Source: Patescibacteria group bacterium
Lineage (GTDB): Bacteria; Patescibacteriota; Minisyncoccia; Phycocordibacterales; UBA9973
Assembly: GCA_028865035.1 (NCBI GenBank)
Contig: JAGWLB010000001.1
Coordinates: 6,673 to 70,672 of the forward strand
DNA: 64,000 bases
Direction: 5' to 3'
Shown piece by piece: positions 27,740 through 43,393 of this stretch. A program made the translations under genes and the position numbers. How positions within the stretch are numbered: position 1 is the stretch's first letter; every line of letters begins with the position of its first letter. The notes beneath the pieces are model-generated. The model did not search any database and was not told where the DNA came from. It was given only the letters and a program-made list of their open reading frames with translations.

Positions 27740-27765
27740 AAATGATATAATATTATTGACTATCT

Positions 27766-29934
27766 ATGAAGGGATTTACTAGAAAAAGAATATTATCGAT
27801 AGTGATAATTACAGCTATGCTTTCTACGCAAGTTGTTTTGCCTTTGCAAGCCAACGCTGGCACATTCTTAAACTATCATAATACAAACCCTTTCCCTGTT
27901 CCTAAATTATCATTAAGAGCCATAACTCCAGGGTTGCTTACATCAGTAGTAAGTTGTACTGGCATTACAAATAAAGCTGCATCAAAATTAATACAATTAC
28001 ACGATGCAATAAAAAAAGAAACCGACAAGCTACTAACTGGCATAAAAACTGATATTAAAAACCTTTTAATGAGTAACGCAAAAAAAATAGCACTTGAGAA
28101 ACAAGTTGCCGCAGTAAAAAGAAAAGCATTAGAAGCACTTGCAGCAACAAATGCAGGAGCGGGTGGCTCTATTTTAGGAGTTAAGGTAGGCGATGTAGTA
28201 CCATCTCTTGTTAATATAGGTATAGACGATTTATCAAAAGCACAAACTATAAACGTAAATGACAATGGTACCCATACAGCTGTTAGTAACACACAAACTA
28301 ATGCTGTGAATATAGCGAGTGCAGCTGATTCTCAACAACAATCAAAAGACTGTTTAAACGGTATTGCAAATGCTCTTATTAAAAGTCAGTTACAAAATAT
28401 GACAGAGCAAACAATGAACTGGGTGAATAGCGGATTTGGTGGCGACCCTATGTATGTGACAGATGTTAACTCGTTTATGAACGGTATAACTGATCAAATT
28501 CTATTGAAAGAAACAAGTTTGTTTAAGAACCCACTAACTAACGGCGACTATCCATACGGTCGCAACTTTGCACAAGGAGCAATTAACGGCAACCAGGCAT
28601 TGAATAATTTCCAGGATTCAATGAAGCAAGATCTTACAAGCTATCTTACTCCTGGGTCTACTCCCCAGACTTTCGCTACTGATTTCTCTCAAGGTGGATG
28701 GGATGGGTGGCTAGCTTTAACACAACATCCACAGAATAACCCGCTAGGTTTTACAATTAATGAAACACAACACATAGCTGATTTACAAAATACTCAGGTA
28801 AAAAATACAACTGATGAGATAAACCGCAACAGTGGCTACCTTGATCAAAAGAAATGTGTCCAGTGGGAGAATCTTGATAAAAGTGGAGAGGGTATACAAA
28901 CCACATCTGACACTGGTAAAAACCAAGATGGAGTCTTAAGGCCTGGCGATGTGACACAGACTGACTTGTGTATCAAATGGCAGACAATAACTCCAGGAAG
29001 TAATATAAAAACTAAAATTGATACTTATGTAAACACTCCTGAGCGTCAGATTGAACTCGCAAGAACTATGGATGATGCTTTGAATGCACTTTTTACAGCT
29101 CTTTTGGGTCAATTCCAAAAACAAGGTTTATACGGATTACAGTCTACTGATAATGCTGGTGTTAATAATGCCAATGGCGGTGGATTTGGTGTTAATCAGG
29201 TTTTTGATAGTAACGGTAACAGTCTGACTCCTATACGAACTTTTAGCGGAAATAGTGGTTTCACTTCTGGAGATGGATTCTTTGACCTCACAAAAGACTT
29301 AGGTAACACTTATAATCCTTTATCTACAACAAGTAATTGGATAATAGATAGCAAAGGCGTCCTACAAATTCAGTACGATTACCTAAACTTATTAAACAAA
29401 TCAAAGACAATTATGGATCAAGTTATGCCTGCTTTAGGAAAGCTTGATTACTGTATCCCAGGACCAAATCCAGATTGGAATAATATTTCTCAAGATGCAA
29501 TAAGTGCTTATATTGACTCAGTGAGTACAGGAACAACAACGCCACCTATCGACTTGGGTACTCTAGATAAAACTCTAGCAGATTACGGAACGCAAATAGA
29601 TAATACATATGGTCCTAATAGTCCTATGCAAAGCGGTGGCACTGGTAATACAAATTATCTAAAAATGTCATCTGAGGGTCTTAATATTACAAAAGATATG
29701 GGAACATATGCTGACACAATATCATCAGCAGAAGGCGACTTCAGTAGCTCACTTGCGGAAGCAAATTCAAATATTGCAAAGCTAAATATTATAAAAGATA
29801 AAGTAAATGCGATAATCATTGCTGCTCAGAAACGCCGTGCTGCTAAGAGAATACAGAGTGGCCTACCAAACGTATCGTCGGCTTGTTTAATATCAGAAAG
29901 AGTAACATATCTGGATAACGGTGTAATTAAATAA
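27766..29934 (+). CDS. Large secreted hypothetical protein (722 aa)
   Basis: Signal peptide MKGFTRKRILSIVIITAMLSTQVVLPLQANA; Gly/Asn/Thr-rich; no known domain. Confidence 0.55.
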   Translation: MKGFTRKRILSIVIITAMLSTQVVLPLQANAGTFLNYHNTNPFPVPKLSLRAITPGLLTSVVSCTGITNKAASKLIQLHDAIKKETDKLLTGIKTDIKNLLMSNAKKIALEKQVAAVKRKALEALAATNAGAGGSILGVKVGDVVPSLVNIGIDDLSKAQTINVNDNGTHTAVSNTQTNAVNIASAADSQQQSKDCLNGIANALIKSQLQNMTEQTMNWVNSGFGGDPMYVTDVNSFMNGITDQILLKETSLFKNPLTNGDYPYGRNFAQGAINGNQALNNFQDSMKQDLTSYLTPGSTPQTFATDFSQGGWDGWLALTQHPQNNPLGFTINETQHIADLQNTQVKNTTDEINRNSGYLDQKKCVQWENLDKSGEGIQTTSDTGKNQDGVLRPGDVTQTDLCIKWQTITPGSNIKTKIDTYVNTPERQIELARTMDDALNALFTALLGQFQKQGLYGLQSTDNAGVNNANGGGFGVNQVFDSNGNSLTPIRTFSGNSGFTSGDGFFDLTKDLGNTYNPLSTTSNWIIDSKGVLQIQYDYLNLLNKSKTIMDQVMPALGKLDYCIPGPNPDWNNISQDAISAYIDSVSTGTTTPPIDLGTLDKTLADYGTQIDNTYGPNSPMQSGGTGNTNYLKMSSEGLNITKDMGTYADTISSAEGDFSSSLAEANSNIAKLNIIKDKVNAIIIAAQKRRAAKRIQSGLPNVSSACLISERVTYLDNGVIK

Positions 29935-29938
29935 TTAT

Positions 29939-30874
29939 ATGGAACATAATAAACCTAAAAAAAGCAAAGCATTCATTATAACTTTTATAGCAGTTATGAT
30001 TCTTCTGCTGGTAGGATATTTTATTTTCTTAAATAGTAATAAACTTTTTGGAACAAAAAATTCGACAAGTATTAGCAAGATTTTTGCACCGCTACTAGGT
30101 ACTTCAAAACAAAAAACACTAAATACTATCGATAATAGTGGTAATACTTCACAAAATTCAAATTCTGCTAACACAAACAATGGTAATACTAATCCGACTA
30201 CTAGTACAAATGGGAATAGTAACACCAACCCAGTAACTGGAATAAGTGACGGTAATACAAATACTAGTAATCAAACTCTTGATGCAAACGGGAATCCTAT
30301 ATCTGTTGGTGGATTAAATGGGTCCAACAATATTGGGTCAGGAAGTCCAGGGAGTATTGATGGTTCTATCGGAGCAAACGGAAATATAAATAACAGCACA
30401 CTTAACTCTACTCCATCATTAAATCCTTTACCTACGCCAGGGAGTAATCCAGCATTAGCTAGCTCGACACCATCTCCGATCTCAACATCTATACCTAGCT
30501 CTACACCTAGTGTTGCATCAGCAACAATATCAACAACAAACGGCAATCTTTGCCCTGTAGATGATCCTTTAGTTTTTACAGATTCAGAGAAAGCTCAGCT
30601 AGATGAATTACTAAAAGAATATTATCTTATCTCTCCTACACTAAAAACTGCTGACGATATATCAGTGTTACAGGATGATATATCTACAAACCAAGCATTA
30701 GTAGATCAAGCAAATCAACTTACAAATGAATGCCAAGCAGAGAAATCGGACCCTAGTTATACTGGCCCTCAGGTTACGAAGAACAATCCTTACTACAGCG
30801 ACCCAAGTAACACTGGAGCTACGCCCTATATACCAACCTACAGTCAACTAGAACAGTTATTTAATATTTGGTAA
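29939..30874 (+). CDS. Bitopic membrane protein with N/T/S/P-rich linker and Cys-containing C-terminal domain
   Basis: TM FIITFIAVMILLLVGYFIFL; ~150-aa low-complexity linker. Confidence 0.5.
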   Translation: MEHNKPKKSKAFIITFIAVMILLLVGYFIFLNSNKLFGTKNSTSISKIFAPLLGTSKQKTLNTIDNSGNTSQNSNSANTNNGNTNPTTSTNGNSNTNPVTGISDGNTNTSNQTLDANGNPISVGGLNGSNNIGSGSPGSIDGSIGANGNINNSTLNSTPSLNPLPTPGSNPALASSTPSPISTSIPSSTPSVASATISTTNGNLCPVDDPLVFTDSEKAQLDELLKEYYLISPTLKTADDISVLQDDISTNQALVDQANQLTNECQAEKSDPSYTGPQVTKNNPYYSDPSNTGATPYIPTYSQLEQLFNIW

Positions 30875-30886
30875 TTATTTATTATT

Positions 30887-33571
30887 GTGAAAAAATTTCT
30901 TCCCACTATATTCATACTTCTAATTATTGCGAATCTTTTCGCTCCTTTTAGTGTGAGTGTTGATAAAAATAATACACCAGTTGTAAAAGCATCTGTAGCT
31001 GAAGCAACGGACACAGTGGGTATTAAAATAAGCGGCCATATTTCTCATACCGATACTAATATAACTCCTTGGTTAACAGTGGTATGGTATTTGGGTGCTG
31101 ATAATAGTAAAGCTTCAGTATTATTACAAAAAGTTGGTTCAACTGATATAACAAAAGCAGATATAGATATGAAGACAGATGATGCTGCTACGCAGGCTTA
31201 TGATGCTAGCCACAACGGAGATCCATTACCTTATACAGTACAAACAGGTAATATTCCTTTATCAGTATTACCAAACACAACATATAATGTAACATTAGTT
31301 GCAACTCAAAATCTTACATTTTGGGGTCATCCTCTTTCGACTGTTTATAATGGTCTAACAGCTGGAAGTAATCACGATGCTGCATATTTATTGTTTACAA
31401 TCACTACCAATAATCAAGGAGATATAACAAAAGTAGACAGTGGTTTAAAAAATAGTTTAAGCATAGATGCGTACATGCCACCATGTAGTATTGTAGGTGG
31501 AAATGGAACAATAGCTGGTTGTGCAGCGCAACTTTTATATTACGTATTGTTTATTCCTACTTCTTACATATTTGCTCTAACAGGGCAAATGTTTGATTTT
31601 ACATTTTTCTATTCTGTAAAAGATACTTCATATCAATCTCCTTTTGTGTTAAATGGTTGGGGGATAATTCGTGATTTCTGTAATATGTTCTTTATATTCG
31701 TATTGTTGTATATCGCTTTTGCTACAATATTAGATATTCACGGATTTAAAACTAAAGAGATGATAATCAATGTAATTATTATTGGTTTACTCATAAACTT
31801 TAGCCTCTTCGCTGCTCAGCTTATTATTGATTCTTCAAATATTCTGGCTAGAGTATTCTACTCTGATCAAAGTGTTAAAATTACTCAAGGTGGGGCAAAT
31901 GGAGTAACAAACAATACCCCAAAATTGAAAGTTGGGCCAAATGGTGAACTACCATTATCTGCTGCGATAGTAAACAAAGTTAATCCTCAAAATTTAATAA
32001 TAAACGGAGTAAATAACGTAGGGGTAGACGATCCTGTTAGTAACAGCAACAGCATAAGTAACACAACCATAGGTGGAAGCAGTTTAAATGCTGGGGGATT
32101 CATTTTAATAGTGTTACTTGCGGTTGCGGTGAACGTGGTGGGAATAATAGTATTCGTATCTGTAAGTATGATATTTATAACAAGAGTAATTGGATTATGG
32201 ATGGCTATGGTATTTGCGCCCCTTGCATTCTTCTCTTATGCGGTACCAAAAATGAAAAGCATAGATATGATTGGTTGGGAAAAATGGTGGCCTGAGACTA
32301 TTAAGCTTGCGTTCCTTGCTCCAGTGTTTATGTTCTTCTTGTATCTCATTATTCAATTCTTAGATACAGGACTTAGCCTTATTAATATACAAGGTCAAAA
32401 CAACATAGCTTTTATAGTAGCAACGGTTGTTCCTTTTGCTTTTATTATGATATTACTCTGGAAAGCAAAAAGTATTGCTAGTGAGATGTCTGGTAAACTC
32501 GGCCAGACCATTACTGGAGGTATTGCAACAATTGGAGGACTTGCACTTGGCGGAGCAGCATTAGGTGTTGCCTTTTCAGGAAGAAAAATTATTGGGGAAA
32601 GAATAGCCGCTAGATCAAGGACAGCAGATTCTATTCATTACGGTAAAGAAAAAATTGCATTTAATAAAAAACTGGAGGATTGGGAAAAGAATGGTAAAAA
32701 AGGAGATAAACCTAAATGGAAAGATCATGCAAAAGCAAATAATGTTAAAACTAATCTTCTCACTAAACTTGGTGGTAATTTAAATGCAAAACAAACAAAA
32801 ATAAATGAGGTGGATCATGCTCGACATGAAATTGATACTATAAAAGATAAGGCGGGATTAAAAGGTGTTAATGACGATAATCTTTCAGGTGTAGATAAAC
32901 AAAAACTAGCTACAACATTTGCAAAAGAAAAGAAGACAGAAATAGAATCTGAAATAAGAAGAGGTACTAAACCTTTATTAGATGAAAATGGTAAAGAAGT
33001 TAAAGATGCAAACAATGAAGTTATAACGGGAGGTGAAAGTGGTTTCAAAGCTGCAAATAGAGATAGGGTCACAAAAGAAATCAGAGATGCAAGTAGTGAT
33101 AATATTCATACTGATGGAGGACTTACGGACGCAGCAAAGAAAAAAGTTGAAGATCAATTAAATGTACAATTTAATGCTATATTAAAAACTTCTACAGACA
33201 AAGAAACGGAAAAAAGATTTAATCATCTACAAGAAGAGTCTAAACAAAAAGTTGGTGGATTTGATAGAGTCTTTGCTCAATCAAATAAAGGTAGTTATGA
33301 TGTCAGAAATCTATCTCAAACAAAAGTAGATAAAAGAGAGAGAGCATTCACAAAGATGAGTGCTGGCTTAATAGCTGGTATTGCTATGGGGGTAAGAACT
33401 GGGCTTAAGCATAGTAATGTTAACCACGGATCTGGCCAAGGTGACTTCTTAAAAGATATAGGGAATACAATAACAGAGGCTCTTAAGAGTACAAAACTAA
33501 AAGTAGAAATTGAAAAAAGTCATGGAACTAGTGGTGGGGATGCTCATACCACAGGTGGTGGACATCATTAA
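30887..33571 (+). CDS. Giant polytopic membrane protein, VirB6/TrbL/PrgH-like (GTG start)
   Basis: Signal peptide, ~230-aa extracytoplasmic domain, at least 6 TM helices, and a ~330-aa charged cytoplasmic tail. The call rests on architecture and synteny next to PrgI/VirB4 homologs, not on motifs. Confidence 0.45.
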   Translation: MKKFLPTIFILLIIANLFAPFSVSVDKNNTPVVKASVAEATDTVGIKISGHISHTDTNITPWLTVVWYLGADNSKASVLLQKVGSTDITKADIDMKTDDAATQAYDASHNGDPLPYTVQTGNIPLSVLPNTTYNVTLVATQNLTFWGHPLSTVYNGLTAGSNHDAAYLLFTITTNNQGDITKVDSGLKNSLSIDAYMPPCSIVGGNGTIAGCAAQLLYYVLFIPTSYIFALTGQMFDFTFFYSVKDTSYQSPFVLNGWGIIRDFCNMFFIFVLLYIAFATILDIHGFKTKEMIINVIIIGLLINFSLFAAQLIIDSSNILARVFYSDQSVKITQGGANGVTNNTPKLKVGPNGELPLSAAIVNKVNPQNLIINGVNNVGVDDPVSNSNSISNTTIGGSSLNAGGFILIVLLAVAVNVVGIIVFVSVSMIFITRVIGLWMAMVFAPLAFFSYAVPKMKSIDMIGWEKWWPETIKLAFLAPVFMFFLYLIIQFLDTGLSLINIQGQNNIAFIVATVVPFAFIMILLWKAKSIASEMSGKLGQTITGGIATIGGLALGGAALGVAFSGRKIIGERIAARSRTADSIHYGKEKIAFNKKLEDWEKNGKKGDKPKWKDHAKANNVKTNLLTKLGGNLNAKQTKINEVDHARHEIDTIKDKAGLKGVNDDNLSGVDKQKLATTFAKEKKTEIESEIRRGTKPLLDENGKEVKDANNEVITGGESGFKAANRDRVTKEIRDASSDNIHTDGGLTDAAKKKVEDQLNVQFNAILKTSTDKETEKRFNHLQEESKQKVGGFDRVFAQSNKGSYDVRNLSQTKVDKRERAFTKMSAGLIAGIAMGVRTGLKHSNVNHGSGQGDFLKDIGNTITEALKSTKLKVEIEKSHGTSGGDAHTTGGGHH

Positions 33572-33581
33572 TATATAAATT

Positions 33582-34601
33582 ATGGATCAAACACAATTAC
33601 AACAGCAAATATCCTTATATTTCTCAAAGTTACCAACAAATGTTCAACAAGTATTTTCTAGTATGACTTGGATGGAAACCTTGAAAGAAATTAGTATTAA
33701 GTTCGGTCTTAATAATGATCAGATAGAAACACTAGGCACAGAGACGACTTTAGTACTACTTGGAATTGTTAGCATAACAGACTATGAACAGACTCTTGCT
33801 AAAGAAATAAATATGCCGCATATAACTTTAGAGAAAATGTTTATGGAAATAAACAATTCAATATTAAAGCCTATTAGCTCATCTCTAGATCAAACTTATA
33901 ATGAACATGTTGAGTCATTGATTGAAGAAAAGTATGGTGGTTTAGAAAAGCTTGATGAACGTTTCACTAAGCTTCCCAAAGAAGTTCAAGAAGCTATTAC
34001 TGAATCAGATTATCAATCTACTCTATATAGTATAGGAAGCAAATATAAACTTTCTGTTAGTCAGATGGGAGATCTAGAAGAGGTTACCAATGGTGTGCTT
34101 CTAGGTATTATTCATCCAGATAAATACGAAGATGAAATCAAATCAAAGTTAAGCTTGCCAGCAGATAAAACGACTGAGCTTGTAAATGAAATAAATGAAA
34201 ATATTCTTAAAAATATCCGTGAAATATTAAAGTCTCACTGGGGCAAACAAGAAGAGAATTTAAGTAATACAGACGATGAAGTTCCATTACCACCATACGC
34301 TAAAAGCGATATTGTAAAAGAAAGTTCCACGCCTGTTAGTATAACTACACCGATAAAAGAATCTATACCGGTTCCATCGCCTAATACGCAGGTGGAAATA
34401 AGCAAAGATGAAAGTACTGTGGATAAAGGGAAAATAGAAAAAGATATTTTTAGTAGTAAGTTAAGTGGCCCGACAGTAAGCAGGCCTGTTATTAGCGACC
34501 ATTCTTTACCTGAAAACAGTATTAAAAAAACGATAACTTCTTCGGGGAAAACAGATTTGGACAAACCAAGACCCGACCCTTATCACGAACCTATAGAATA
34601 G
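33582..34601 (+). CDS. Soluble protein with two tandem ~85-aa repeats and a disordered S/P/T-rich tail
   Basis: Repeat 1 starts LPTNVQQVF...VLLGIVSITDYEQ...EINNSILKPI; repeat 2 starts LPKEVQEAI...VLLGIIHPDKYED...EINENILKNI. Confidence 0.5.
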   Translation: MDQTQLQQQISLYFSKLPTNVQQVFSSMTWMETLKEISIKFGLNNDQIETLGTETTLVLLGIVSITDYEQTLAKEINMPHITLEKMFMEINNSILKPISSSLDQTYNEHVESLIEEKYGGLEKLDERFTKLPKEVQEAITESDYQSTLYSIGSKYKLSVSQMGDLEEVTNGVLLGIIHPDKYEDEIKSKLSLPADKTTELVNEINENILKNIREILKSHWGKQEENLSNTDDEVPLPPYAKSDIVKESSTPVSITTPIKESIPVPSPNTQVEISKDESTVDKGKIEKDIFSSKLSGPTVSRPVISDHSLPENSIKKTITSSGKTDLDKPRPDPYHEPIE

Positions 34602-34620: not shown

Positions 34621-35028
34621 ATGCAATTTAAAGTCCCACAATTTATCGACATTGAAGATAAACTCTTTGGACCTTTTACTTTTCGTCAGTTTGCATATAT
34701 GGCAGGGGGAGTAAGTATGATATTTGTTATTTATAAATTATTACCACTTTGGATCGGTATTTTTCTAATAATACCAGTTGGAATCCTAACTGGCCTCTTA
34801 ACCTTTTATAAGATAAATGATAAACCATTTATCTATTACTTACAGGCTGCTGTAAATTATGCTATATCAAGCAAGCTTTATATCTGGAAGCAGCGCTTAG
34901 TAAAACCAAGCGATAAAAAGGATGGTGCAGAAACAGCTCCTGAAACAACTTCGATTGTACCTATGACATCGACAAGTACTTTAAAAGATTTGGCTTGGAG
35001 TCTGGATGTACAAGAGAAAGAACAGTAA
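34621..35028 (+). CDS. PrgI/VirB3-like small T4SS membrane protein
   Basis: KVPQFIDIEDKLFGPFTFRQFAYMAGG followed by two TM helices, as in PrgI and Tn916 Orf17-type proteins; sits immediately upstream of VirB4. Confidence 0.55.
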   Translation: MQFKVPQFIDIEDKLFGPFTFRQFAYMAGGVSMIFVIYKLLPLWIGIFLIIPVGILTGLLTFYKINDKPFIYYLQAAVNYAISSKLYIWKQRLVKPSDKKDGAETAPETTSIVPMTSTSTLKDLAWSLDVQEKEQ

Positions 35029-35133: not shown

Positions 35134-35787
35134 ATGGCTATAAATGCTCGCGCTGCACAAGATTTTGTGCCAATAAAAGAAGTTCGTAATGGTGTCATCA
35201 TTCTTAAAGATGGTGGTCTTCGAGCTGTTCTTATAGCTTCGTCTATAAACCTGTCATTGAAGTCTTCTGAGGAGCAAACTGCTATTATTAATCAGTTTCA
35301 AGCATTTTTAAATGGCTTAGATTTCTCTACACAGATTGTTGTGCAATCTCGTAGGCTCGATATCAGGCCGTATCTTTTAATGCTTGAAGCTCGAGAAAAA
35401 GAACAAACGGAAAAACTACTTAAAATACAAACAAGGGAGTATATGGAATTCATACGTTCTTTTACAGATGAAGTGAATATTATGACTAAGACATTTTTTG
35501 TTGTTGTGCCTTATAGTCAGACAATCTTAAAATCAAATAATGGAATGATAGATAAATTACTAGGATCTACAACACCTAAAAAGCAAATAGAGAACACCAA
35601 AAAGGCTATGGATATGGCAGATTTTGAAGAAAAACGTAGTCAGTTAGATGAGCGTGTAAGCGTTATTATTTCAGGACTTGGTGGTCTCGGTATACGTAGC
35701 TCTCAATTAAAAACAGAAGAAGTGGTTGAACTTTTTTATAAAACATTTAATCCTGGTGATATCAGTCAGGGGATTAAACTACAATAA
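35134..35787 (+). CDS. VirB4/TraC-family N-terminal domain, encoded as a separate ORF
   Basis: FVPIKEVRNGVIILKDGGLRAVLIASSINLSLKSSEEQTAIINQFQAFLN resembles the N-terminus of Gram-positive VirB4 proteins; stop codon lies 1 nt before the next ATG. Confidence 0.6.
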   Translation: MAINARAAQDFVPIKEVRNGVIILKDGGLRAVLIASSINLSLKSSEEQTAIINQFQAFLNGLDFSTQIVVQSRRLDIRPYLLMLEAREKEQTEKLLKIQTREYMEFIRSFTDEVNIMTKTFFVVVPYSQTILKSNNGMIDKLLGSTTPKKQIENTKKAMDMADFEEKRSQLDERVSVIISGLGGLGIRSSQLKTEEVVELFYKTFNPGDISQGIKLQ

Positions 35788-35788
35788 T

Positions 35789-37651
35789 ATGGGAATTATT
35801 TCATCAATATTTGGTAGTAAGGGAGATAAGAATAGTACTAATCCAAAAAGTACAGTTATGCCTGTGATTCCTACGGAGATTTATAGAGCAGCAACTCTAG
35901 AACTTCAAGATATTATCGCACCTTCTGCTTTACAAATAACTCCGAAAGGTTTAAATCTTGGTGATAAAATTGTTAGAACTTTTTTTGTTATATCTTACCC
36001 TAGATATCTGACAGACAATTGGTTTTCTCCAATTATTAATCTGGATAAAGTTTTTGATGTATCAATTTTTATACATCCGATAGATACTTCTGAAATACTT
36101 CGTTCATTCCAGAAAAAAGTTGCTGAGGTTCAGAGTCAGATTTCTATTCGTGAATCTAAAGGGTTAGTTCGTGATCCAATGCTAGATACCGCTTATCGTG
36201 ATCTTGAAAGTTTGCGTGATAATTTAATGCAGGCTCAAGAGAAAATGTTTGATGTTGGTTTATATATTACAATCTATGCTGATAATGAAAACGATCTGTT
36301 TAAAATTGAAAGTGAAATAAAGTCTCTTCTTGAGTCTAAGCTTATCTATTTAAAACCAGCATTGTTCCAGCAAGACGAAGCTTTTAAGAGTGTTATTCCT
36401 CTTGGGACAGATATATTAGCCGTTCACCAGAAGCTCAACACTGAACCTCTTTCAAGTCTTTTCCCATTTGTATCGTTTGATCTCACGTCGGATAAAGGTA
36501 TTTTGTATGGTGTTAATCGTCACAACTCAAGTCTTATCATCTTTGATAGATTTTCATTACCAAACTATAATTCTATAACTTTTGCGACTTCTGGTGCTGG
36601 TAAATCTTACGCGACTAAACTTGAGATTATACGTACTTTGATGTTTGATACTGAAGTAATAGTCATAGACCCTGAAAGGGAATATGAATATTTGTCCGAA
36701 GCTGTAGGTGGGAGATATTTTAATATTGCACTTTCTTCAGATCACCATATTAATCCTTTTGATTTACCAATACCAACATCAGACGAAACTCCTGCTGATG
36801 TTTTGCGCGCCAATACTATAAACCTGGTTGGATTATTCCGTATAATGCTCGGCGGTCTTACTCCGGAAGAAGATTCTATAATAGACAGAGCAATAACCGA
36901 AACTTATGCTTTGAAAGATATTACTGCTGAGTCAAACTTTGCAAATATAGAACCTCCTCTTCTAATGGATTTTGAAATGGTTTTAGTTGGAATGGATGGA
37001 AGTGAGTCTCTGATTCAACGCTTAGCTAAGTTCACTCACGGTTCTTGGGCTTCTTTCTTGAATCAACCATCAAACGTAGATATTAACCGTAAATTCGTTG
37101 TCTTTTCTGTGCGTGATATGGAAGATGAATTAAAACCAGTAGCAATGTACATAGTCACTCATTATATATGGAATGCAATTCGTAAAAACATAAAAAAACG
37201 TTTACTTGTTGTCGATGAAGCTTGGTGGATGATGAAATCAGAAGACACTGCTTCTTTCTTATATTCTATAGCGAAACGTGGACGAAAATACTATTTAGGT
37301 CTTGCCACTATCACTCAAGATGTCGGAGACTTTATGAAAAGTCCATATGGTGTGCCGATAGTTACAAACTCATCTATCCAGTTATTATTAAAGCAATCTC
37401 CTTCGACTATAGATATTCTACAGAAAACCTTTAATCTTACCGATGAAGAAAAATACTTACTCTTAGAAGCTAATGTGGGCGAGGGAATCTTCTTTGCGGG
37501 ACTCAAACACGTGGCCGTCAAAACCATAGCTTCATATACAGAGGATCAAATAATTACTTCTGACCCATCTCAGATTTTAGCTATTAAAAAAGCAAAGGAT
37601 GATTTAGTAGAACAAGAAGCCAATCAAGATAAAAATCAGGCTAGTATTTAG
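35789..37651 (+). CDS. VirB4-like T4SS ATPase (ATPase domain)
   Basis: Walker A FATSGAGKSYATKLEI; Walker B LLVVDEAWWMM; TraC/VirB4 family organisation. Confidence 0.8.
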   Translation: MGIISSIFGSKGDKNSTNPKSTVMPVIPTEIYRAATLELQDIIAPSALQITPKGLNLGDKIVRTFFVISYPRYLTDNWFSPIINLDKVFDVSIFIHPIDTSEILRSFQKKVAEVQSQISIRESKGLVRDPMLDTAYRDLESLRDNLMQAQEKMFDVGLYITIYADNENDLFKIESEIKSLLESKLIYLKPALFQQDEAFKSVIPLGTDILAVHQKLNTEPLSSLFPFVSFDLTSDKGILYGVNRHNSSLIIFDRFSLPNYNSITFATSGAGKSYATKLEIIRTLMFDTEVIVIDPEREYEYLSEAVGGRYFNIALSSDHHINPFDLPIPTSDETPADVLRANTINLVGLFRIMLGGLTPEEDSIIDRAITETYALKDITAESNFANIEPPLLMDFEMVLVGMDGSESLIQRLAKFTHGSWASFLNQPSNVDINRKFVVFSVRDMEDELKPVAMYIVTHYIWNAIRKNIKKRLLVVDEAWWMMKSEDTASFLYSIAKRGRKYYLGLATITQDVGDFMKSPYGVPIVTNSSIQLLLKQSPSTIDILQKTFNLTDEEKYLLLEANVGEGIFFAGLKHVAVKTIASYTEDQIITSDPSQILAIKKAKDDLVEQEANQDKNQASI

Positions 37652-37690: not shown

Positions 37691-38680
37691 ATGCATTCTC
37701 ATAAAAAATTTCTTTTTGGAATATTGTTAATACTTTGTATCGTTTCTATACCTAGTTATAGTAAGGCTATCGACGGTATTGGTTTGCAGGAATCTGACAT
37801 TACAGCAAGCACACAGCCAGAAAACCCTGAGCCTTATCAAGATGTAACCATAAGTCTTGTTAGTTATGCTACAGACCTAAACAAAGCCACTATCGAGTGG
37901 CGCAGTGGATCAAAAGTTTTACTATCGGGTATTGGTCGTACAAACTTCTCTATAAAAGCTCCGGGCCCAAATGTGACGGCAGTTTATACTGCTACAATAA
38001 CTCCAGTAGGAGACACAAACAGTATTACAAAACAAATTATAATTAGTCCATCAGACATAGAAGTGTTATGGGAATCTGTAGACGGGTACACCCCTCCTTT
38101 TTATAAAGGTAAATCTTTTGCATCACCAGAAAGCCTTATAAAAGTTGTAGCTATACCTGACACAAGCGCTGTGAAATCTAGTAGTAATCTAGTATATACT
38201 TGGAAAAATAATGGTAAAACAATACAAAGTGCTTCTGGTTATGGTAAGGACTCTTATATATTTGCAAATAATGAATTAAACAGAAGTGAAGAGATTACGG
38301 TATCTGCCTCAACAGTAGATGGATCATATAATGCAACAAAGACAATAAACATACCGATAATTGATCCAAAAATTGTTTTTTATAAAAGATCACCTACCGA
38401 TGGAGTTTTGTACAATAGTGCATTAGTAAATGATGTATTTATGTCTGGGGACGAGTTTACCATTGTTGCCACACCATACTTTCTTGCTACTTTAGGTAAT
38501 GAGGATAAATTTACTTATAGCTGGCAAATAAATGGTAATAGTATAAGTACTCCTTCAAAGAAAACAGAGTTAACGGTCCGACCAAGCTCTCGTGGAGGAT
38601 ATGCAACAATAGGCGTTACAATGGAAAACTTAAACACATTTTTCCAAAAAGTTACTGGCCAATTAAAAATAAACTTATAA
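37691..38680 (+). CDS. Secreted hypothetical protein (beta-rich)
   Basis: Signal peptide MHSHKKFLFGILLILCIVSIPSYSKA. Confidence 0.5.
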   Translation: MHSHKKFLFGILLILCIVSIPSYSKAIDGIGLQESDITASTQPENPEPYQDVTISLVSYATDLNKATIEWRSGSKVLLSGIGRTNFSIKAPGPNVTAVYTATITPVGDTNSITKQIIISPSDIEVLWESVDGYTPPFYKGKSFASPESLIKVVAIPDTSAVKSSSNLVYTWKNNGKTIQSASGYGKDSYIFANNELNRSEEITVSASTVDGSYNATKTINIPIIDPKIVFYKRSPTDGVLYNSALVNDVFMSGDEFTIVATPYFLATLGNEDKFTYSWQINGNSISTPSKKTELTVRPSSRGGYATIGVTMENLNTFFQKVTGQLKINL

Positions 38681-38681
38681 T

Positions 38682-39977
38682 ATGAAAAAAACTTTATCTA
38701 TCTTTATATTAATAACTACATTGCTTTCATTTAGTAGTAAGGTTTCAGCTGATAACTCTATCACTTTGTATGTTTCTCAAAGTGATTCAACTGCTACAAT
38801 TACAGCTAAATATTTAGGCGCAGATAACTGTAGTGGAGATATTCTTGTTACCGACAACAAAAATCCGCCAATTTATAGTAAACTTTCTCCTATTTCATTT
38901 ACTGCTGGTACCCAATCTGCTACAGTTGAATTAACAGGTCTTACTAAAGGAGAAACATATAACGCTATGGCTAATTGTTCAGGTTCATTAGCAAAAGCCA
39001 CGTCTCAAGTATCTACTTTTACTTTCGGCTCTATATCACCTGATAACAACGCTCCATACGACGTAAGCCCACAAAAATATGACAATTCTGTTGATACTTA
39101 TAATCTTTTAGCTCCTATAGGTGGTTTAAAAAGTATCACAACAAATGGTGGGACTTGCCCAATAGACCCTAAAATGGCAGGTGGTATTGGTTGTTATCTT
39201 AATATTATTTTCAAAATTGGTATTGGTCTTGCTGGAGCGTTATCTGTCATAATGATTGTTATAGGTGGTGTGCAATATATGGGTAATGAATCAATTTTTG
39301 GTAAAAATGAGGCAAAAAGTAAAATAATGTCAGCAATTTTAGGCCTCCTTATAGCTCTTGGTGCTTTTGCCCTCTTAAATACTATTAATCCTGATCTGAC
39401 GGGGGCGAAAGGGGTACAAATAGATCAGGTCAGCGCAGAGATAGATGAAGCACCAATACTATCAGATGCAAATACTTCAGTGCCGTCGGGAACAACAAAC
39501 AGTTTTGCGGATTGCCCAGGTGGAGTAAGAAAAGTAGGTACTACTGGTGGAAATTTTATATTCTGCTCAGCTTATGCAAGTAAATTACAACAAATGTTTT
39601 CAGATGCATATCATGCTAATCCTAGTATATTTTTATCTGGAGGAGGATTTAGGACTCATGATTCACAAATAGCATTGAGAAATAAAAATTGTCCCGATCC
39701 AAAGTTAACAGTTCCTTCATCGTCTTGCCATCCACCAACAGCAAGACCAGGAACGTCAAATCATGAACAAGGTCTTGCTGTTGATTTGACTTGTGATGGT
39801 GAATTAATAAATTGGCAAACAAACAAAAGTGCTCATGATTACCAACCTAAATTTCCGATTAATCAAAAAACAAAAAAGTGTTTTGACTGGTTAGCGTCTA
39901 ATGCTGGTAATTATGGATTTAAAAATTTATCATCAGAAAATTGGCATTGGTCAACAGGTCCTAATGCTGGTAGATAA
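38682..39977 (+). CDS. Secreted protein with VirB2/TrbC-pilin-like hydrophobic hairpin fused to a VanY/LAS-type zinc peptidase domain
   Basis: Signal peptide; paired hydrophobic helices IGIGLAGALSVIMIVIGGVQYM...IMSAILGLLIALGAFALL; C-terminal SNHEQGLAVD (SxHxxGxAxD) and ENWH (ExxH) motifs of VanY/M15 peptidases. Confidence 0.6.
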   Translation: MKKTLSIFILITTLLSFSSKVSADNSITLYVSQSDSTATITAKYLGADNCSGDILVTDNKNPPIYSKLSPISFTAGTQSATVELTGLTKGETYNAMANCSGSLAKATSQVSTFTFGSISPDNNAPYDVSPQKYDNSVDTYNLLAPIGGLKSITTNGGTCPIDPKMAGGIGCYLNIIFKIGIGLAGALSVIMIVIGGVQYMGNESIFGKNEAKSKIMSAILGLLIALGAFALLNTINPDLTGAKGVQIDQVSAEIDEAPILSDANTSVPSGTTNSFADCPGGVRKVGTTGGNFIFCSAYASKLQQMFSDAYHANPSIFLSGGGFRTHDSQIALRNKNCPDPKLTVPSSSCHPPTARPGTSNHEQGLAVDLTCDGELINWQTNKSAHDYQPKFPINQKTKKCFDWLASNAGNYGFKNLSSENWHWSTGPNAGR

Positions 39978-39982
39978 TATTT

Positions 39983-41302
39983 ATGCCTAAAAAAACAAAA
40001 ATCATTTTCATAATTGTATTTATACTAGTTGGATCTATTATGCTTGGTTTTTATTTCTATGTTAGTAAAAAAAATACATCTGGTACAAACAGTGGCTCAA
40101 ATAATGCATACCAACCTTTCTTAGGAGGGAACACAACACCACAAGGAGGAAATGGTAATAGTACTAGTAGTAATAATACGAGTGGTACGCAAACAAATAC
40201 CCCTATCGATAGCCAGGTTGCTCCACAAGCTTCTAAATTCCATCAGATAACAAATATATCAGTTGCAGGGGCGGCTTACTTGGAGGACACTCGTAAAGTG
40301 CAGACAACAGGGGTCGCTTTACCTGGTGGTTTAACCCAACCAACAAGTACCACGAAAACAACAACTAAAGTAGCAGCACCGAGAGTCGAAACTGTTCCTT
40401 CTGTAAGATATGTTGAGCGTGCTACTGGATACATAGATGAAATGTATTTAGATACAAAAGTTTCAGGAGAAATATCGAACTCTACAATACCTAGTATATA
40501 TAGAGCATTTTTTGGTAATGATGCAAATAGTGTTATTTATCAGTATCTTTCACCGGACACGGGTGATACAATAAACAGCTTTATGGCAACCCTTGGTGGT
40601 AGCAAAGGAGAATTTCTTCCATCTAATGTTATAAACATTAGTCTTTCTCCTGATAAAAGTAAGTTTTTTTATCTTGTAAAAACTTCAAGTGGTGTGAATG
40701 GTATAGTGAGGTCATTTGGTGATACTAAAGCTTCACAAGTTTTCAGTTCTCGTTATAGTGAATGGCTATCTCAGTGGGTAACAAAAGATAAAGTATTTTT
40801 AACAACAAAAGCTTCGTCTGCTGTAGATGGTAGTGTATTTAGTTTGAATATTATAAGCGGTATATCGACTAAAATATTTGGTAGTGTGAAAGGTTTAACA
40901 ACTTTAGCAAACAATGACGGATCTCTTATTTTGTATAGTACTTCAGATTCGTCAGTTCCTCAATTAAAAATATTCAACACAAAAAACCGTACGACCTTTG
41001 ATTTAAATACACCAGGATTAGCAGAGAAATGTATTTGGAGTGCAGATAATATAAACATTTATTGTGCTATACCAAGTAATATAATAGGTGGAGACTATCC
41101 GGATTCTTGGTATCAAGGATTAGTATCTTTTAATGATCGTTTTGCAAAAATAAACTCAATCACTGGTGATCAGATAGATATTGCAGATTCTACAAATGAA
41201 ATAGCTGTAGATGCTACTAAATTATTCTTAAACAAAGATGAGAGTCAGCTATTTTTCATAAACAAAAAGGACTCCACGCTATGGAGTCTAGACTTGAACT
41301 AA
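39983..41302 (+). CDS. Bitopic membrane protein with predicted beta-propeller-like ectodomain
   Basis: N-terminal TM, N/T/S/G-rich linker, beta-strand-rich C-terminal 300 aa; last gene of the cluster. Confidence 0.5.
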   Translation: MPKKTKIIFIIVFILVGSIMLGFYFYVSKKNTSGTNSGSNNAYQPFLGGNTTPQGGNGNSTSSNNTSGTQTNTPIDSQVAPQASKFHQITNISVAGAAYLEDTRKVQTTGVALPGGLTQPTSTTKTTTKVAAPRVETVPSVRYVERATGYIDEMYLDTKVSGEISNSTIPSIYRAFFGNDANSVIYQYLSPDTGDTINSFMATLGGSKGEFLPSNVINISLSPDKSKFFYLVKTSSGVNGIVRSFGDTKASQVFSSRYSEWLSQWVTKDKVFLTTKASSAVDGSVFSLNIISGISTKIFGSVKGLTTLANNDGSLILYSTSDSSVPQLKIFNTKNRTTFDLNTPGLAEKCIWSADNINIYCAIPSNIIGGDYPDSWYQGLVSFNDRFAKINSITGDQIDIADSTNEIAVDATKLFLNKDESQLFFINKKDSTLWSLDLN

Positions 41303-41303
41303 A

Positions 41304-41762
41304 CTATTCTGCTATATATTTTATAACAACCCTCCTGTTTTGTCCGTATCCTTCGGATTCTGTTTTAATATCTGGAGCGTTTTCTAAGAACATATGTACA
41401 ATGCGTCGTTCGTAGGCTGGCATAGGGTCTATCTCTATATTACTCTTGAAGTAACGAGCTCTCTCAGCCATCATATGTGCGATGGTTTTTAAATTATTAA
41501 AGCGCTTTTTTTGATAACCATTCACATCAATAAAAATATTTTTAGTTTCTTCTTCGGCTGTATCTTTTTCAATCATTTTGTGGACTAGGTGGTTTAGGGA
41601 ACGCAATGTTTCACCGTCGCGTCCAATAATAAACCTAGAATCGGGTGTATCTATCATACACCAAAGATAATTACCGTCTGAAGAAAATTCGCATTTTGAA
41701 ATAGTGCAGTTAAGATGTTTGAAAATATCTTCTATTATTTTTTTTATTTGGTCTTCTTTCAT
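41304..41762 (-). CDS. jag: Jag/KhpB RNA-binding protein (KH + R3H)
   Basis: RFIIGRDGETLRSLNHLV KH segment; C-terminal R3H-like ERRIVHMFLEN; conserved position after yidC. Confidence 0.75.
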   Translation of the reverse strand: MKEDQIKKIIEDIFKHLNCTISKCEFSSDGNYLWCMIDTPDSRFIIGRDGETLRSLNHLVHKMIEKDTAEEETKNIFIDVNGYQKKRFNNLKTIAHMMAERARYFKSNIEIDPMPAYERRIVHMFLENAPDIKTESEGYGQNRRVVIKYIAE

Positions 41763-41767
41763 AATTT

Positions 41768-42526
41768 TTATATAACATTGTCTTTCAAGGCTTTTCTAAC
41801 ATACCACTCTTGGATTATAGTAAAAACGTTACTTGTGATCCAGTATAATGCGACAGCTGCTGATATTTTATAAGCTATGAATACTATAAATATGGGTAAT
41901 ATGTATTTTACATTCATTTGCATACTATCAGAAAGCTGATCTTGGAAATTTTTAGTATTATTTTCTGGCATTTCTTTCACTACTTCTACTTTCGGCTTGA
42001 TTGGTGAAGCTAAGTATCCTTGAATAAATTGTGAAATACCAGCTAATACCGCAAGTACTATACTTTTGCTATGAACTTCTATTAGTCCTAAGAAATTAGT
42101 GTGAAGGTAAGCTGGTGCTTTTATAAAAGAATATAGTGGCCCTGTGTCTAAAGATAATCCTTTATAGAAAACATAATAAAGAGCAAAAATAAAAGGAAGT
42201 TGTAGTAACACAACTAAACAACCAGAAAAAGGATTGACCCCGTATTTTTTATACAATTCGAAAGTTTTCTTTGCTTGTTCTTCTTTGTTTGGAATTTCTT
42301 TCTTAATACGCTTAAGCTCAGGCTCAACACGCTTCATAAGAATCTGGCTTTTAATAGATTTCTTAGTTAGAGGGAACAGGGCTAGTTTAACAATGATAGT
42401 TAAAAGAATAATACCGAAACCAACGTCACCAAAAGTTATAGTTTTTATTAATAAGATGAGCGCGTTGTAAATTGGTTGATAGAAAATTGTGTTCCAAATT
42501 GCATACATTGGTCTATTGTAGCTCAA
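41768..42526 (-). CDS. yidC: Membrane protein insertase YidC (short form)
   Basis: Polytopic 252 aa; synteny rpmH-rnpA-yidD-yidC-jag. Confidence 0.8.
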   Translation of the reverse strand: MSYNRPMYAIWNTIFYQPIYNALILLIKTITFGDVGFGIILLTIIVKLALFPLTKKSIKSQILMKRVEPELKRIKKEIPNKEEQAKKTFELYKKYGVNPFSGCLVVLLQLPFIFALYYVFYKGLSLDTGPLYSFIKAPAYLHTNFLGLIEVHSKSIVLAVLAGISQFIQGYLASPIKPKVEVVKEMPENNTKNFQDQLSDSMQMNVKYILPIFIVFIAYKISAAVALYWITSNVFTIIQEWYVRKALKDNVI

Positions 42527-42574
42527 AAAGACTTAAAACCAAAATTCTATTAATATACTTAATATTTTTATTGA

Positions 42575-42781
42575 TTAACGAAGGGGGTCGTAATGATTTT
42601 TCTGCCAAGGGTGGCATCTAGTTATCCTTATAAAACCAAGATAGACACCTTTAGCTGGGCCATATTTAGTAATAGCTTCTTTGGTATATTCTGAACAGGT
42701 AGGAATAAAAACACAAGATGAATGTGATCTTAGTGGCGTCTTCTGATATGTATTTATAAGCCAAATTAATATTTTACCCAT
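42575..42781 (-). CDS. yidD: Membrane protein insertion efficiency factor YidD
   Basis: PTCSEY...RITRCHPW cysteine motif. Confidence 0.8.
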   Translation of the reverse strand: MGKILIWLINTYQKTPLRSHSSCVFIPTCSEYTKEAITKYGPAKGVYLGFIRITRCHPWQKNHYDPLR

Positions 42782-42787
42782 ATATTA

Positions 42788-43141
42788 TTAGCTAATTTTG
42801 CTTAATATTGTCTTTGTTGAATCTTTTATTTCCTTAAAACTAGCTTTTCCAGACCCTTTTTTATAGAAAAATATACCCATAACACAAGGTAGTTGTTTGT
42901 ATTGTTTTAAAGCGTTGTAGCCTTGGCGTCTTAGTTTATTCCTTAAAACTGCTTGTTTTGCAACGGTTTTTGGGGCAACAAATGCGTATTTTGGAGAATA
43001 TTCCTTGTTATTTATGGTTAAATAACGAAAAATAAAGAGCGGACTTGAGAGAATCTTCCCGTTTTTCATAATACTAAGGAATGTCTCTTTTGTAATCCGC
43101 TCTTTTTTAGGAAGCATATCGCTATTTCTTAATAGAAACAT
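42788..43141 (-). CDS. rnpA: RNase P protein component
   Basis: 117 aa basic protein; [12 protein letters not shown]; synteny. Confidence 0.75.
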
Positions 43142-43262
43142 TTGCTCGTCCTTTACGTCTACGAGCTTGTGTTACCTTTTTACCACCTGGTGATTTTGTT
43201 CTAACTAAGAAGCCGTGTGTTTTGGCCCTCTTTCTTCTGTTGGGTTGATATGTTTGAGACAT
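43122..43262 (-). CDS. rpmH: 50S ribosomal protein L34
   Basis: [46 protein letters not shown]; start set at the conserved M, not the longer ORF in the track. Confidence 0.8.
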
Positions 43263-43316
43263 ATGAAAAATATATACTATAATTCTGTATAATGCAATGT
43301 TTATAATACCATAAAC

Positions 43317-43325
43317 ATATCCACA
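43317..43325. promoter_or_regulatory. DnaA box (8/9 match) upstream of dnaA, with a TATAAT at 43381..43386
   Basis: atatccaca compared with TTATCCACA. Confidence 0.4.
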
Positions 43326-43393
43326 CATTATTAACAGGTTAATTAAGGTATGTGATTATTTGTGTGTTTTGAAAAAGTAGTATAATACGCACT

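What the first reader, a model, noticed from the sequence alone, without database searches (positions are those of the whole stretch)
35134..37651. VirB4 encoded as two adjacent ORFs split at the domain boundary
The 217-aa product of 35134..35787 matches the N-terminal domain of Gram-positive VirB4/TcpF-type ATPases (IKEVRNGVIILKDGGLRAVL...). Its TAA stop lies 1 nt before the ATG of the 620-aa ATPase-domain ORF. No frameshift is needed, so this looks like a genuine gene fission rather than a pseudogene. It could still be a sequencing error that introduced the stop.
Basis: seen in the sequence. Interest (0 to 1): 0.55.

Follow-up and report, generated by a model that had tools for sequence, protein, structure and literature searches.

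The report
Two-gene VirB4 (TrsD plus ATPase)
The secretion-machine ATPase VirB4 of this candidate-phyla-radiation bacterium really is encoded as two separate genes, but this TrsD-plus-short-VirB4 arrangement is conserved in thousands of related genomes and has already been described, so it is genuine but ordinary.

Summary
ORF1 (35134..35787, 217 aa) ends in TAA, one T follows, and ORF2 (35789..37651, 620 aa) starts at ATG.

It is not an error or a pseudogene:
- The two ORFs are in different frames.
- ORF1 homologues form more than 7,500 protein clusters, and almost all are stand-alone proteins of about 217 aa.
- In 77 species-level genomes the stop and restart are always present, with variable spacing and all three relative frames.
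- ORF1 is under strong purifying selection.

ORF1 and ORF2 map to successive, non-overlapping parts of full-length VirB4 profiles. A sister clade (Candidatus Colwellbacteria) carries the two parts fused, and its predicted structure aligns end to end with R388 TrwK/VirB4.

- The cut is not at the classical N-terminal/C-terminal domain boundary. It lies in a flexible linker inside the N-terminal domain, and ORF2 keeps about 230 N-terminal-domain residues.
- Whether the split arose by fission, or the fused forms by fusion, is unresolved.

ORF1 is a homologue of TrsD/TraD of pGO1-type Gram-positive plasmids, which are cut in the same linker. A 2025 survey already reported TrsD next to virB4 across Patescibacteria. 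Verdict: real, already known, low interest.

The parts
34621..35028 (+). PrgI/TcpE-type small membrane protein (VirB3 equivalent), the gene immediately upstream of ORF1
   Evidence: Pfam PF12666 PrgI, E 5e-9, 37 bits against a cut-off of 27. The same PrgI-then-VirB4 order is seen in the fused relatives.
35134..35787 (+). ORF1, 217 aa: a stand-alone TrsD/TraD-like protein (Pfam PF26593 'TraC-like'), equivalent to the first half of the VirB4 N-terminal domain
   Evidence: AF2 model with pLDDT 83. Foldseek top 14 hits are all TrwK/VirB4. pN 0.08-0.14 against pS 0.62-0.82 relative to orthologues.
35785..35791 (+). Junction TAA-T-ATG: the ORF1 stop, a 1-nt spacer and the ORF2 start, with ORF2 in the +1 frame
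   Evidence: A 1-nt spacer also occurs in 12 of 77 related species, a 1-10 nt spacer in 47 of 77, and relative frames are 40/20/17.
35789..37651 (+). ORF2, 620 aa: a short VirB4 made of linker, second half of the N-terminal domain and the C-terminal ATPase domain
   Evidence: NCBIfam CD1110-family VirB4, 372 bits against a cut-off of 325, on profile positions 183-732 of 752. Pfam P-loop_TraG. Homologues are 597-627 aa.
35789..35902 (+). ORF2 residues 1-38: a poorly conserved linker segment that starts with the conserved motif MG(I/L)F..(I/L)F..K
   Evidence: Alignment with fused and split relatives. The N-terminal motif is seen in 77 species.
35903..36490 (+). ORF2 residues 39-234: the second half of the VirB4 N-terminal domain (the region corresponding to CagE_TrbE_VirB)
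   Evidence: Weak PF03135/PF11130 hits. Colinear with P0348 residues 230-430 and TrwK from about residue 300 onward.
36491..37558 (+). ORF2 residues 235-590: the VirB4 C-terminal ATPase domain, with Walker A SGAGKSY at 36590-36610 and Walker B LLVVDEAW at 37202-37225
   Evidence: phmmer against 4ag5_A, E 9.6e-37. Motif coordinates.
38682..39977 (+). Downstream cluster gene with a VanY-type peptidase domain, a candidate cell-wall hydrolase of the system (VirB1 analogue)
   Evidence: Pfam PF02557, E 8e-10. Weak hit to the Mbov_0395 pilin-like family.

Best explanation
The window comes from a Patescibacteria (CPR, Paceibacteria-like) genome. The locus is part of its chromosomal, monoderm-type type IV secretion system, next to the replication origin genes.

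VirB4 is made here as two polypeptides from adjacent cistrons:
- ORF1 is a TrsD/TraD-like protein that corresponds to the first ~200 residues of the VirB4 N-terminal domain.
- ORF2 is a short VirB4 that carries a linker, the second half of the N-terminal domain and the Walker A/B ATPase domain.

Shown here: the two products are colinear and complementary with full-length VirB4. The cut lies in a variable, low-confidence inter-subdomain linker. Both genes are conserved as separate cistrons under purifying selection. A sister clade has them fused.

Inferred: the two proteins reassemble non-covalently into a VirB4-like protomer. The TrsD-like piece would supply the membrane-proximal surfaces which, in R388, bind VirB3 (here PrgI, encoded just upstream) and mediate VirB4-VirB4 contacts. 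The tight TAA-T-ATG junction favours co-expression from one mRNA, possibly by termination-reinitiation.
For: Origin of the window:
- An identical 217-aa protein is found in a Patescibacteria MAG.
- jag, yidC, dnaA and dnaN lie at 41304-46052.

Complementarity with full-length VirB4:
- ORF1 maps to CD1110 profile positions 2-119 and ORF2 to 183-732.
- ORF1 maps to Mbov_0397 profile positions 104-244 and ORF2 to 293-881.
- ORF2 residues 39-604 match fused P0348 residues 230-796 at 56% identity.

Structure:
- The ORF1 model (pLDDT 83) has significant PDB matches only to TrwK/VirB4.
- The model of the fused relative aligns with TrwK over 818 columns, TM 0.56/0.56, E 5e-27.
- Its pLDDT dips to about 62 at residues 211-230, where the window's cut maps.

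Conservation of the split:
- ORF1 has 7,580 homologous clusters, and the top 120 are all 215-217 aa.
- 148 of the 150 best 50%-identity representatives are stand-alone.
- All 77 compared species loci have the stop and restart, with gaps of 1-10 nt in 47 and all three relative frames.
- Synonymous sites are saturated while pN is 0.08-0.14.

Same cut elsewhere:
- The S. aureus TrsD|TrsE junction falls in the same alignment column. The L. brevis and Pontibacillus junctions fall in the same linker.

Literature:
- TrsD has remote homology to the VirB4 N-terminus. 2,272 homologues were found in Patescibacteria, 1,664 of them next to virB4, and the gene is essential in Southlakia epibionticum (PMC12102498).
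- In R388 the VirB4 N-terminal domain (residues 15-400) binds VirB3 and forms the dimer interface (PMC9259494).
Against: - No direct test of physical association was possible, because the tools offer no multimer prediction or contact output.
- ORF1 scores only 32 bits against NCBIfam TrsD (cut-off 200), and the local Pfam copy gave no hit.
- A profile comparison of the ORF1 family with the TrwK sequence alone was weak (E 0.06), although it fell at the colinear position 113-139.
- In six species another gene sits between the two cistrons, so translational coupling is not obligatory.
- The published survey notes that TrsD is not adjacent to virB4 in Gracilibacteria.
- This genome lacks Shine-Dalgarno motifs generally (3 of 39 genes). 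The absence of one before ORF2 therefore says nothing about coupling.
Confidence: 0.85

Rival explanations
1. The split is a sequencing or assembly error, or a recent pseudogenising mutation in an originally continuous virB4.
For: The stop and start are only 1 nt apart. Assembly artefacts of this kind do exist: two apparently truncated 600-aa proteins inside the fused clade are caused by 100-N scaffold gaps.
Against: - The ORFs are in different frames.
- The same two-gene state occurs in all 77 compared species genomes, with varied spacers and frames, and in thousands of protein clusters from independent sources.
- ORF1 is under strong purifying selection.
- The window has no N runs at the junction.
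Confidence: 0.01
2. A programmed +1 frameshift or stop-codon readthrough at the junction produces a full-length fused VirB4 from the two ORFs.
For: ORF2's frame is open for 63 nt upstream of its ATG and overlaps the end of ORF1. In 17 of 77 species the two ORFs are in the same frame.
Against: - Relative frames are 40/20/17 across species and gaps range from -4 to about 500 nt, so no recoding geometry is conserved.
- In many species ORF2's frame is closed by a stop 3-6 nt upstream of the ATG.
- ORF2 always starts with a conserved ATG and the MG(I/L)F motif.
- Six species have a whole gene inserted between the cistrons.
Confidence: 0.03
3. ORF1 is a diverged paralogue of the VirB4 N-terminus with its own accessory role. 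It is not the missing piece of ORF2, and ORF2 works as a naturally short VirB4 on its own.
For: [quoted passage not shown]
- About a quarter of TrsD cluster representatives carry long disordered C-terminal tails absent from VirB4.
- The cistrons can be separated by an inserted gene.
Against: - ORF1 and ORF2 cover non-overlapping, successive parts of full-length profiles, so ORF2 lacks exactly what ORF1 supplies.
- Natural fusions occur in a sister clade and on five contigs of another lineage.
- The fused model aligns end to end with TrwK.
- TrsD is essential together with the T4SS in Southlakia.
Confidence: 0.1

Closest known systems
TrsD/TraD plus TrsE/TraE of pGO1/pSK41-type staphylococcal and lactobacillal conjugative plasmids (MPF_FATA, pGO1 subclass)
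   Same: A protein of about 220 aa with VirB4 N-terminal homology lies directly upstream of a VirB4 of about 670 aa. The cut falls in the same alignment column or linker. tblastn with ORF1 hits annotated trsD genes.
   Different: Sequence identity is only about 25-28%, and ORF1 is below the NCBIfam TrsD cut-off. The plasmid systems are conjugative and carry a relaxase. No relaxase family was detected among the proteins scanned in this chromosomal, origin-proximal locus, although several neighbouring ORFs had no family hit, and relaxases are reported absent from most Patescibacteria T4SS clusters (PMC12102498).
Patescibacteria T4SS as surveyed by Quinonero-Coronel et al. 2025 (PMC12102498) and the essential T4SS of Southlakia epibionticum (Wang et al. 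2023, PMC10633639)
   Same: Same phylum and same gene set (PrgI/VirB3, TrsD, VirB4, a cell-wall hydrolase downstream). TrsD is adjacent to virB4 and the cluster lies near dnaA.
   Different: Nothing substantive. This locus is one more instance. Added here: explicit complementarity, the position of the linker, junction statistics and the fused Colwellbacteria clade.
Full-length monoderm VirB4 (CD1110 family, Mbov_0397 family) and Gram-negative TrwK/VirB4 of R388
   Same: The same domains in the same order. ORF2 passes the CD1110 cut-off. The fused CPR relative matches TrwK over its full length.
   Different: Those proteins are single polypeptides of about 750-900 aa. Here the first ~200 residues are a separate gene product.
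VirB3-VirB4 fusions in some conjugative systems
   Same: They show that the VirB3/VirB4 N-terminal module tolerates changes in gene boundaries.
   Different: The change goes the opposite way (fusion with VirB3). No such fusion is seen here or in the Patescibacteria survey.

Membership tests
VirB4 T4SS ATPase (ORF2) | C-terminal RecA-like ATPase domain with Walker A and Walker B motifs, homologous to solved VirB4 C-terminal domains | tested here: met
   4ag5_A E 9.6e-37 over ORF2 residues 235-590. SGAGKSY at 268-274 and LLVVDEAW at 472-479.
VirB4 T4SS ATPase (ORF2) | Score above a curated family cut-off | tested here: met
   NCBIfam NF045971 (CD1110 family): 372.4 bits against a cut-off of 325. 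Pfam P-loop_TraG: 86.8 bits against 25.8.
VirB4 T4SS ATPase (ORF2) | Complete N-terminal domain (about 400 aa) and C-terminal domain on one polypeptide | tested here: not met
   ORF2 starts at profile position 183 of 752. The first part is supplied by ORF1.
VirB4 T4SS ATPase (ORF2) | Encoded next to a VirB3/PrgI-type small membrane protein and other T4SS genes | tested here: met
   PrgI at 34621..35028 and a VanY hydrolase at 38682..39977.
TrsD/TraD-like, Pfam PF26593 'TraC-like' (ORF1) | Significant match to the family model | tested here: inconclusive
   NCBIfam NF041427 gives E 7.8e-8 but only 32 bits against a cut-off of 200. The local Pfam copy gave no hit. The identical protein P0001 and all listed homologues carry a precomputed PF26593 hit. 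The MPF_FATA TrsD HMM used in the literature could not be run.
TrsD/TraD-like, Pfam PF26593 'TraC-like' (ORF1) | Stand-alone protein of about 200-230 aa directly upstream of a short VirB4 | tested here: met
   The same layout is seen in the S. aureus, L. brevis and Pontibacillus plasmids.
TrsD/TraD-like, Pfam PF26593 'TraC-like' (ORF1) | Homology or fold of the N-terminal part of VirB4 | tested here: met
   NCBIfam VirB4 profiles. Foldseek top 14 hits are TrwK, probability 1.0, TMq 0.42-0.53. Secondary-structure order is identical to the N-terminus of the fused model.
TrsD/TraD-like, Pfam PF26593 'TraC-like' (ORF1) | Physical association with VirB4 and/or VirB3 | not testable with these tools
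   No multimer prediction or contact output is available. No experimental data were found in the papers searched.
Pseudogene or recoded (frameshifted) gene | The disruption is absent from orthologues, or a recoding signal and frame relationship are conserved | tested here: not met
   The disruption is present in all 77 compared species loci, and frames and spacers vary.

The most novel reading that the evidence does not exclude
The linker between the TrsD-like subdomain and the rest of VirB4 may be an evolutionarily toggled break-point: split in this clade and in pGO1-type plasmids, fused in Colwellbacteria and another lineage, and repeatedly invaded by 23S_rRNA_IVP genes. Under this reading, detachment has a functional pay-off. 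The membrane-proximal, VirB3-binding module could be made in a different amount from the ATPase, for example only for the 'central' VirB4 ring. It could also acquire long disordered tails that recruit other factors in the pilus-bearing, growth-essential T4SS of Patescibacteria.
Probability: 0.12. Interest if true: 0.5.

Novelty: already known. Interest (0 to 1): 0.2.

Why it matters
The T4SS is essential for the epibiotic growth of at least one cultivated Patescibacterium. TrsD is its most frequently detected component, yet it is described as having no assigned function. Recognising TrsD as the detached first half of the VirB4 N-terminal domain gives a concrete, testable role: binding PrgI/VirB3 and organising the VirB4 assembly. 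It also prevents this gene pair from being annotated as a pseudogene or a truncated VirB4. As a discovery it adds little, because the arrangement is published for both Gram-positive plasmids and Patescibacteria.

Tried and rejected
- Local Pfam and PDB sequence searches with ORF1 found nothing. Homology appeared only with NCBIfam, tblastn and fold comparison.
- The first attempt to fetch loci, using a 75-sequence alignment, failed because the alignment was too diverse. A 16-sequence alignment worked.
- hhalign of the ORF1 family against the single TrwK sequence was too weak to map domains (E 0.06).
- The promoter and terminator scan was at or below chance (18 found against 21.6 expected), so it says nothing about separate transcription.
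- The Shine-Dalgarno analysis was uninformative, because the genome hardly uses such motifs (3 of 39 genes).
- Two 600-aa proteins inside the fused clade looked like recent fissions but are scaffold-gap artefacts.
- I considered the conserved MGIF..KK start of ORF2 as a new docking peptide specific to split forms. I dropped the idea because a similar hydrophobic-basic stretch lies upstream of the junction in Pontibacillus and in the fused linkers.
- The papers on pELF and pNP40 plasmids concern an unrelated 'TraD'.
- The NJ tree is too coarse to say whether split or fused is ancestral.
Full report
**Observation.**
- ORF1 runs from ATG 35134 to TAA 35785-35787. It is 217 aa and contains IKEVRNGVIILKDGGLRAVL.
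- A single T follows at 35788.
- ORF2 runs from ATG 35789 to 37651 and is 620 aa.

ORF2 is +1 relative to ORF1, and its frame is open back to a TTG at 35726. A substitution that merely 'introduced the stop' therefore could not have produced this layout.

**Where the window comes from.**
- An identical 217-aa protein is recorded from a Patescibacteria-group MAG on a 203-kb contig.
- The window is about 34% G+C.
- The cluster lies beside jag/R3H, yidC, dnaA and dnaN at 41304-46052.
- The gene immediately upstream of ORF1 is a PrgI/TcpE-type small membrane protein, the VirB3 equivalent.
- A VanY-type peptidase gene lies downstream.

**What the two products are.**
ORF2:
- It passes the NCBIfam cut-off for the CD1110 family of VirB4-like ATPases (372 bits against 325), but only on profile positions 183-732 of 752.
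- Residues 235-590 match the crystallised C-terminal domain of Thermoanaerobacter VirB4, 4ag5, at E 1e-36.
- The Walker A motif (SGAGKSY, residues 268-274) and Walker B motif (LLVVDEAW, residues 472-479) are present.

ORF1:
- It has no hit in the local Pfam copy or in PDB sequences.
- It matches positions 2-119 of the same CD1110 profile, positions 104-244 of 894 of the mycoplasma-ICE VirB4 profile, and the TrsD/TraD profile at E 8e-8, which is below the curated cut-off.
- With the mycoplasma-ICE profile, ORF2 continues at positions 293-881.

The two products are therefore successive, non-overlapping pieces of a full-length VirB4. ORF1 is not a second copy of something ORF2 already has.

Structure agrees with this:
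- An AlphaFold2 model of ORF1 (pLDDT 83) has 14 top PDB matches by Foldseek. All are TrwK/VirB4 chains of plasmid R388, and nothing else is significant.

**Real or artefact.**
- ORF1 has 7,580 homologous 90%-identity clusters, and the best 120 are all 215-217 aa.
- ORF2's best 120 homologues are 589-627 aa.
- In an exhaustive search of 50%-identity representatives the ORF1 family has 2,215 members. Of the best 150, 148 are stand-alone and 2 are fused to a VirB4.

I fetched 80 loci from different species genomes. In 77 of them both genes lay on the same strand and could be compared:
- All 77 have a stop after the ORF1 homologue: TAA in 60, TAG in 14, TGA in 3.
- In all 77 the VirB4 gene has its own ATG.
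- The spacer is 1-10 nt in 47 loci and exactly 1 nt, as here, in 12.
- The spacer is 15-122 nt in 22 loci and 421-496 nt in 6. There is one ATGA overlap, and one start was mis-assigned by my script.
- The relative reading frame is +1 in 40 loci, +2 in 20 and 0 in 17.
- The VirB4 proteins start with a conserved M-[GS]-[ILF]-[FL]-[DS]-x-[IL]-[FL] motif. This confirms ATG 35789 as the start, rather than the Met24 used in the public annotation (597 aa).

Against four orthologues, ORF1 has pN 0.08-0.14 while synonymous sites are saturated (pS 0.62-0.82). The ratio dN/dS is about 0.11 where it can be computed.

Sequencing error, recent pseudogenisation and conserved programmed frameshifting are all excluded by these data.

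**Where the cut lies.**
I aligned ORF1+ORF2 with two fused CPR proteins, two fused monoderm VirB4s and three split plasmid pairs.
- The window's junction falls between the conserved '...ELFYxxYNP' helix that ends the TrsD-like module and the conserved 'D(I/V)IAP...YPRY' block that begins the next module.
- This stretch varies in length. It is a few residues in P0348 and about 100 Pro-rich residues in P0353.
- The S. aureus TrsD|TrsE junction falls in the same alignment column. The L. brevis and Pontibacillus junctions fall in the same linker.

In R388 the VirB4 N-terminal domain is residues 15-400 (PMC9259494). The cut is therefore in the middle of the classical N-terminal domain, at a sub-domain linker. 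It is not at the boundary with the ATPase domain, and ORF2 keeps about 230 N-terminal-domain residues.

**Fused relatives.**
- P0348 (797 aa) sits behind PrgI and next to dnaA on a CPR contig.
- Of the 120 listed matches in the search with P0348 (which include P0348 itself), 118 are fused proteins of 775-807 aa. Many are labelled Candidatus Colwellbacteria.
- The two 600-aa exceptions are scaffold-gap artefacts caused by 100 N.
- P0353 (898 aa) occurs on five contigs from several samples.
- An AF2 model of P0348 (pLDDT 75) has the same secondary-structure order in its first 207 residues as the ORF1 model. Its confidence dips at residues 211-230.
- That model aligns end to end with TrwK chain 8rtd_O: 818 columns, TM 0.56/0.56, E 5e-27.

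A rough neighbour-joining tree of the VirB4 part gives the following order:
- P0353 (fused) is the first branch of the CPR clade.
- Next come the fused Colwellbacteria clade and the split clade that includes the window, as sister groups.
- The split Pontibacillus pair is the nearest outgroup.
- The split pGO1-type pairs and the fused Enterococcus and Spiroplasma proteins lie further out.

At least two fused/split transitions are needed, and their direction is unresolved.

**Mechanism.**
Shown:
- the two products are complementary;
- the cut lies in a linker;
- both are conserved as separate cistrons;
- natural fusions exist.

Inferred:
- The two products reassemble into a VirB4-like protomer.
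- In R388 the VirB4 N-terminal domain is wrapped by VirB3 and forms the central/outside dimer interface. The detached ORF1 module would supply part of that domain and is most plausibly where PrgI docks. Which half of the N-terminal domain carries these surfaces was not mapped here.
- The 1-nt spacer suggests co-translation from one mRNA.

Limits on the coupling inference:
- The genome lacks Shine-Dalgarno motifs generally (3 of 39 genes).
- The promoter scan is at chance level.
- Six species tolerate a whole gene between the cistrons.

Coupling is therefore convenient but not obligatory.

**Comparison with what is known.**
- tblastn with ORF1 hits genes annotated 'TrsD/TraD family conjugative transfer protein' directly upstream of VirB4 genes of about 670 aa on Firmicutes plasmids.
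- Quinonero-Coronel et al. [quoted passage not shown]
- The same paper reports TrsD as the most abundant T4SS component they detect in Patescibacteria: 2,272 homologues, 1,664 of them associated with virB4.
- It also reports that the Southlakia epibionticum homologue is essential, and that these clusters often sit near dnaA.
- Pfam already has a domain for this module (PF26593 'TraC-like').

The finding is therefore real but already described. What this analysis adds is incremental:
- explicit complementarity of the two products;
- the position of the linker, shared with pGO1-type plasmids;
- junction statistics across 77 species;
- a fused Colwellbacteria clade whose model matches full-length TrwK.

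**Verdict.**
- Observation: confirmed.
- Interpretation: partly supported. It is a genuine split gene, but the domain boundary is wrong, the frame difference was missed, the direction of change is unknown, and the known family was not recognised.
- Novelty: already known.
- Interest: low (0.2).

Noticed in passing
window 35789..35860: The public annotation of ORF2 (P0121, 597 aa) starts at Met24 (nt 35858). The N-terminal motif MG(I/L)F..(I/L)F is conserved in 77 species, and many species have an upstream in-frame stop. Both indicate that ATG 35789 is the true start.
   Followed up: yes
L028, L042, L045, L048, L057, L071 (between the trsD stop and the virB4 start, about 420-500 nt): In six species a gene for a four-helix-bundle '23S rRNA-intervening sequence protein' (PF05635, E 6e-33 to 1.5e-16 for the three tested) sits exactly between trsD and virB4. 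One of the six copies (L048) looks degraded. The six species are scattered on the VirB4 tree, which suggests repeated insertion at this junction.
   Followed up: partly
proteins P0258, P0279, P0290, P0293, P0299, P0312, P0358 (TrsD homologues) and P0353 residues ~215-320: Many stand-alone TrsD homologues carry Pro/Gln/Thr/Ala-rich, apparently disordered C-terminal tails of about 60-230 aa. The fused protein P0353 has a Pro-rich linker of about 100 aa at the same place. The window's ORF1 has no such tail.
   Followed up: partly
window, upstream of most start codons (e.g. 43394, 48969, 60344, 2156): Only 3 of 39 genes have a Shine-Dalgarno-like motif. Many have a TATAAT-like box a few bases upstream of the ATG, which suggests Shine-Dalgarno-independent or leaderless initiation in this genome.
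   Followed up: partly
window 41304..46052: The T4SS cluster abuts the origin-region genes jag/R3H-KH, yidC, dnaA and dnaN. The fused relatives show the same neighbourhood (L083, L091).
   Followed up: partly
window 38682..39977: This 431-aa protein combines a C-terminal VanY-type peptidase domain with a weak match (E 1.5e-4) to the Mbov_0395 pilin-like conjugal transfer family. It is a candidate cell-wall hydrolase of the system.
   Followed up: no
L013 and L018, spacer between trsD and virB4: The 45-55 nt spacer contains a near-perfect hairpin (e.g. ctaggcaagacctgacatgtcaggtcttgccta). This could be a terminator or attenuator between the two cistrons in those species.
   Followed up: no
L091 ~1545-1647 and L092 (public MAG scaffolds): Two apparently 'short' VirB4 proteins inside the fused Colwellbacteria clade are artefacts of 100-N scaffold gaps inside the gene. 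Truncated VirB4 calls in MAG catalogues should be treated with this in mind.
   Followed up: yes
L090 (Streptomyces sp. BHT-5-2 plasmid p1, 2186420-2188171): The best plasmid-collection match to ORF2 (36% identity over 93% of ORF2) lies in an unannotated 2.8-Mb Streptomyces 'plasmid' record. It is closer than any Firmicutes plasmid VirB4.
   Followed up: no
window 30887..33571, 33582..34601, 37691..38680, 39983..41302, 26861..30874: Several large ORFs flanking the PrgI-TrsD-VirB4 core have no Pfam or NCBIfam family. They are presumably the divergent channel, pilin or adhesin components of the system.
   Followed up: no
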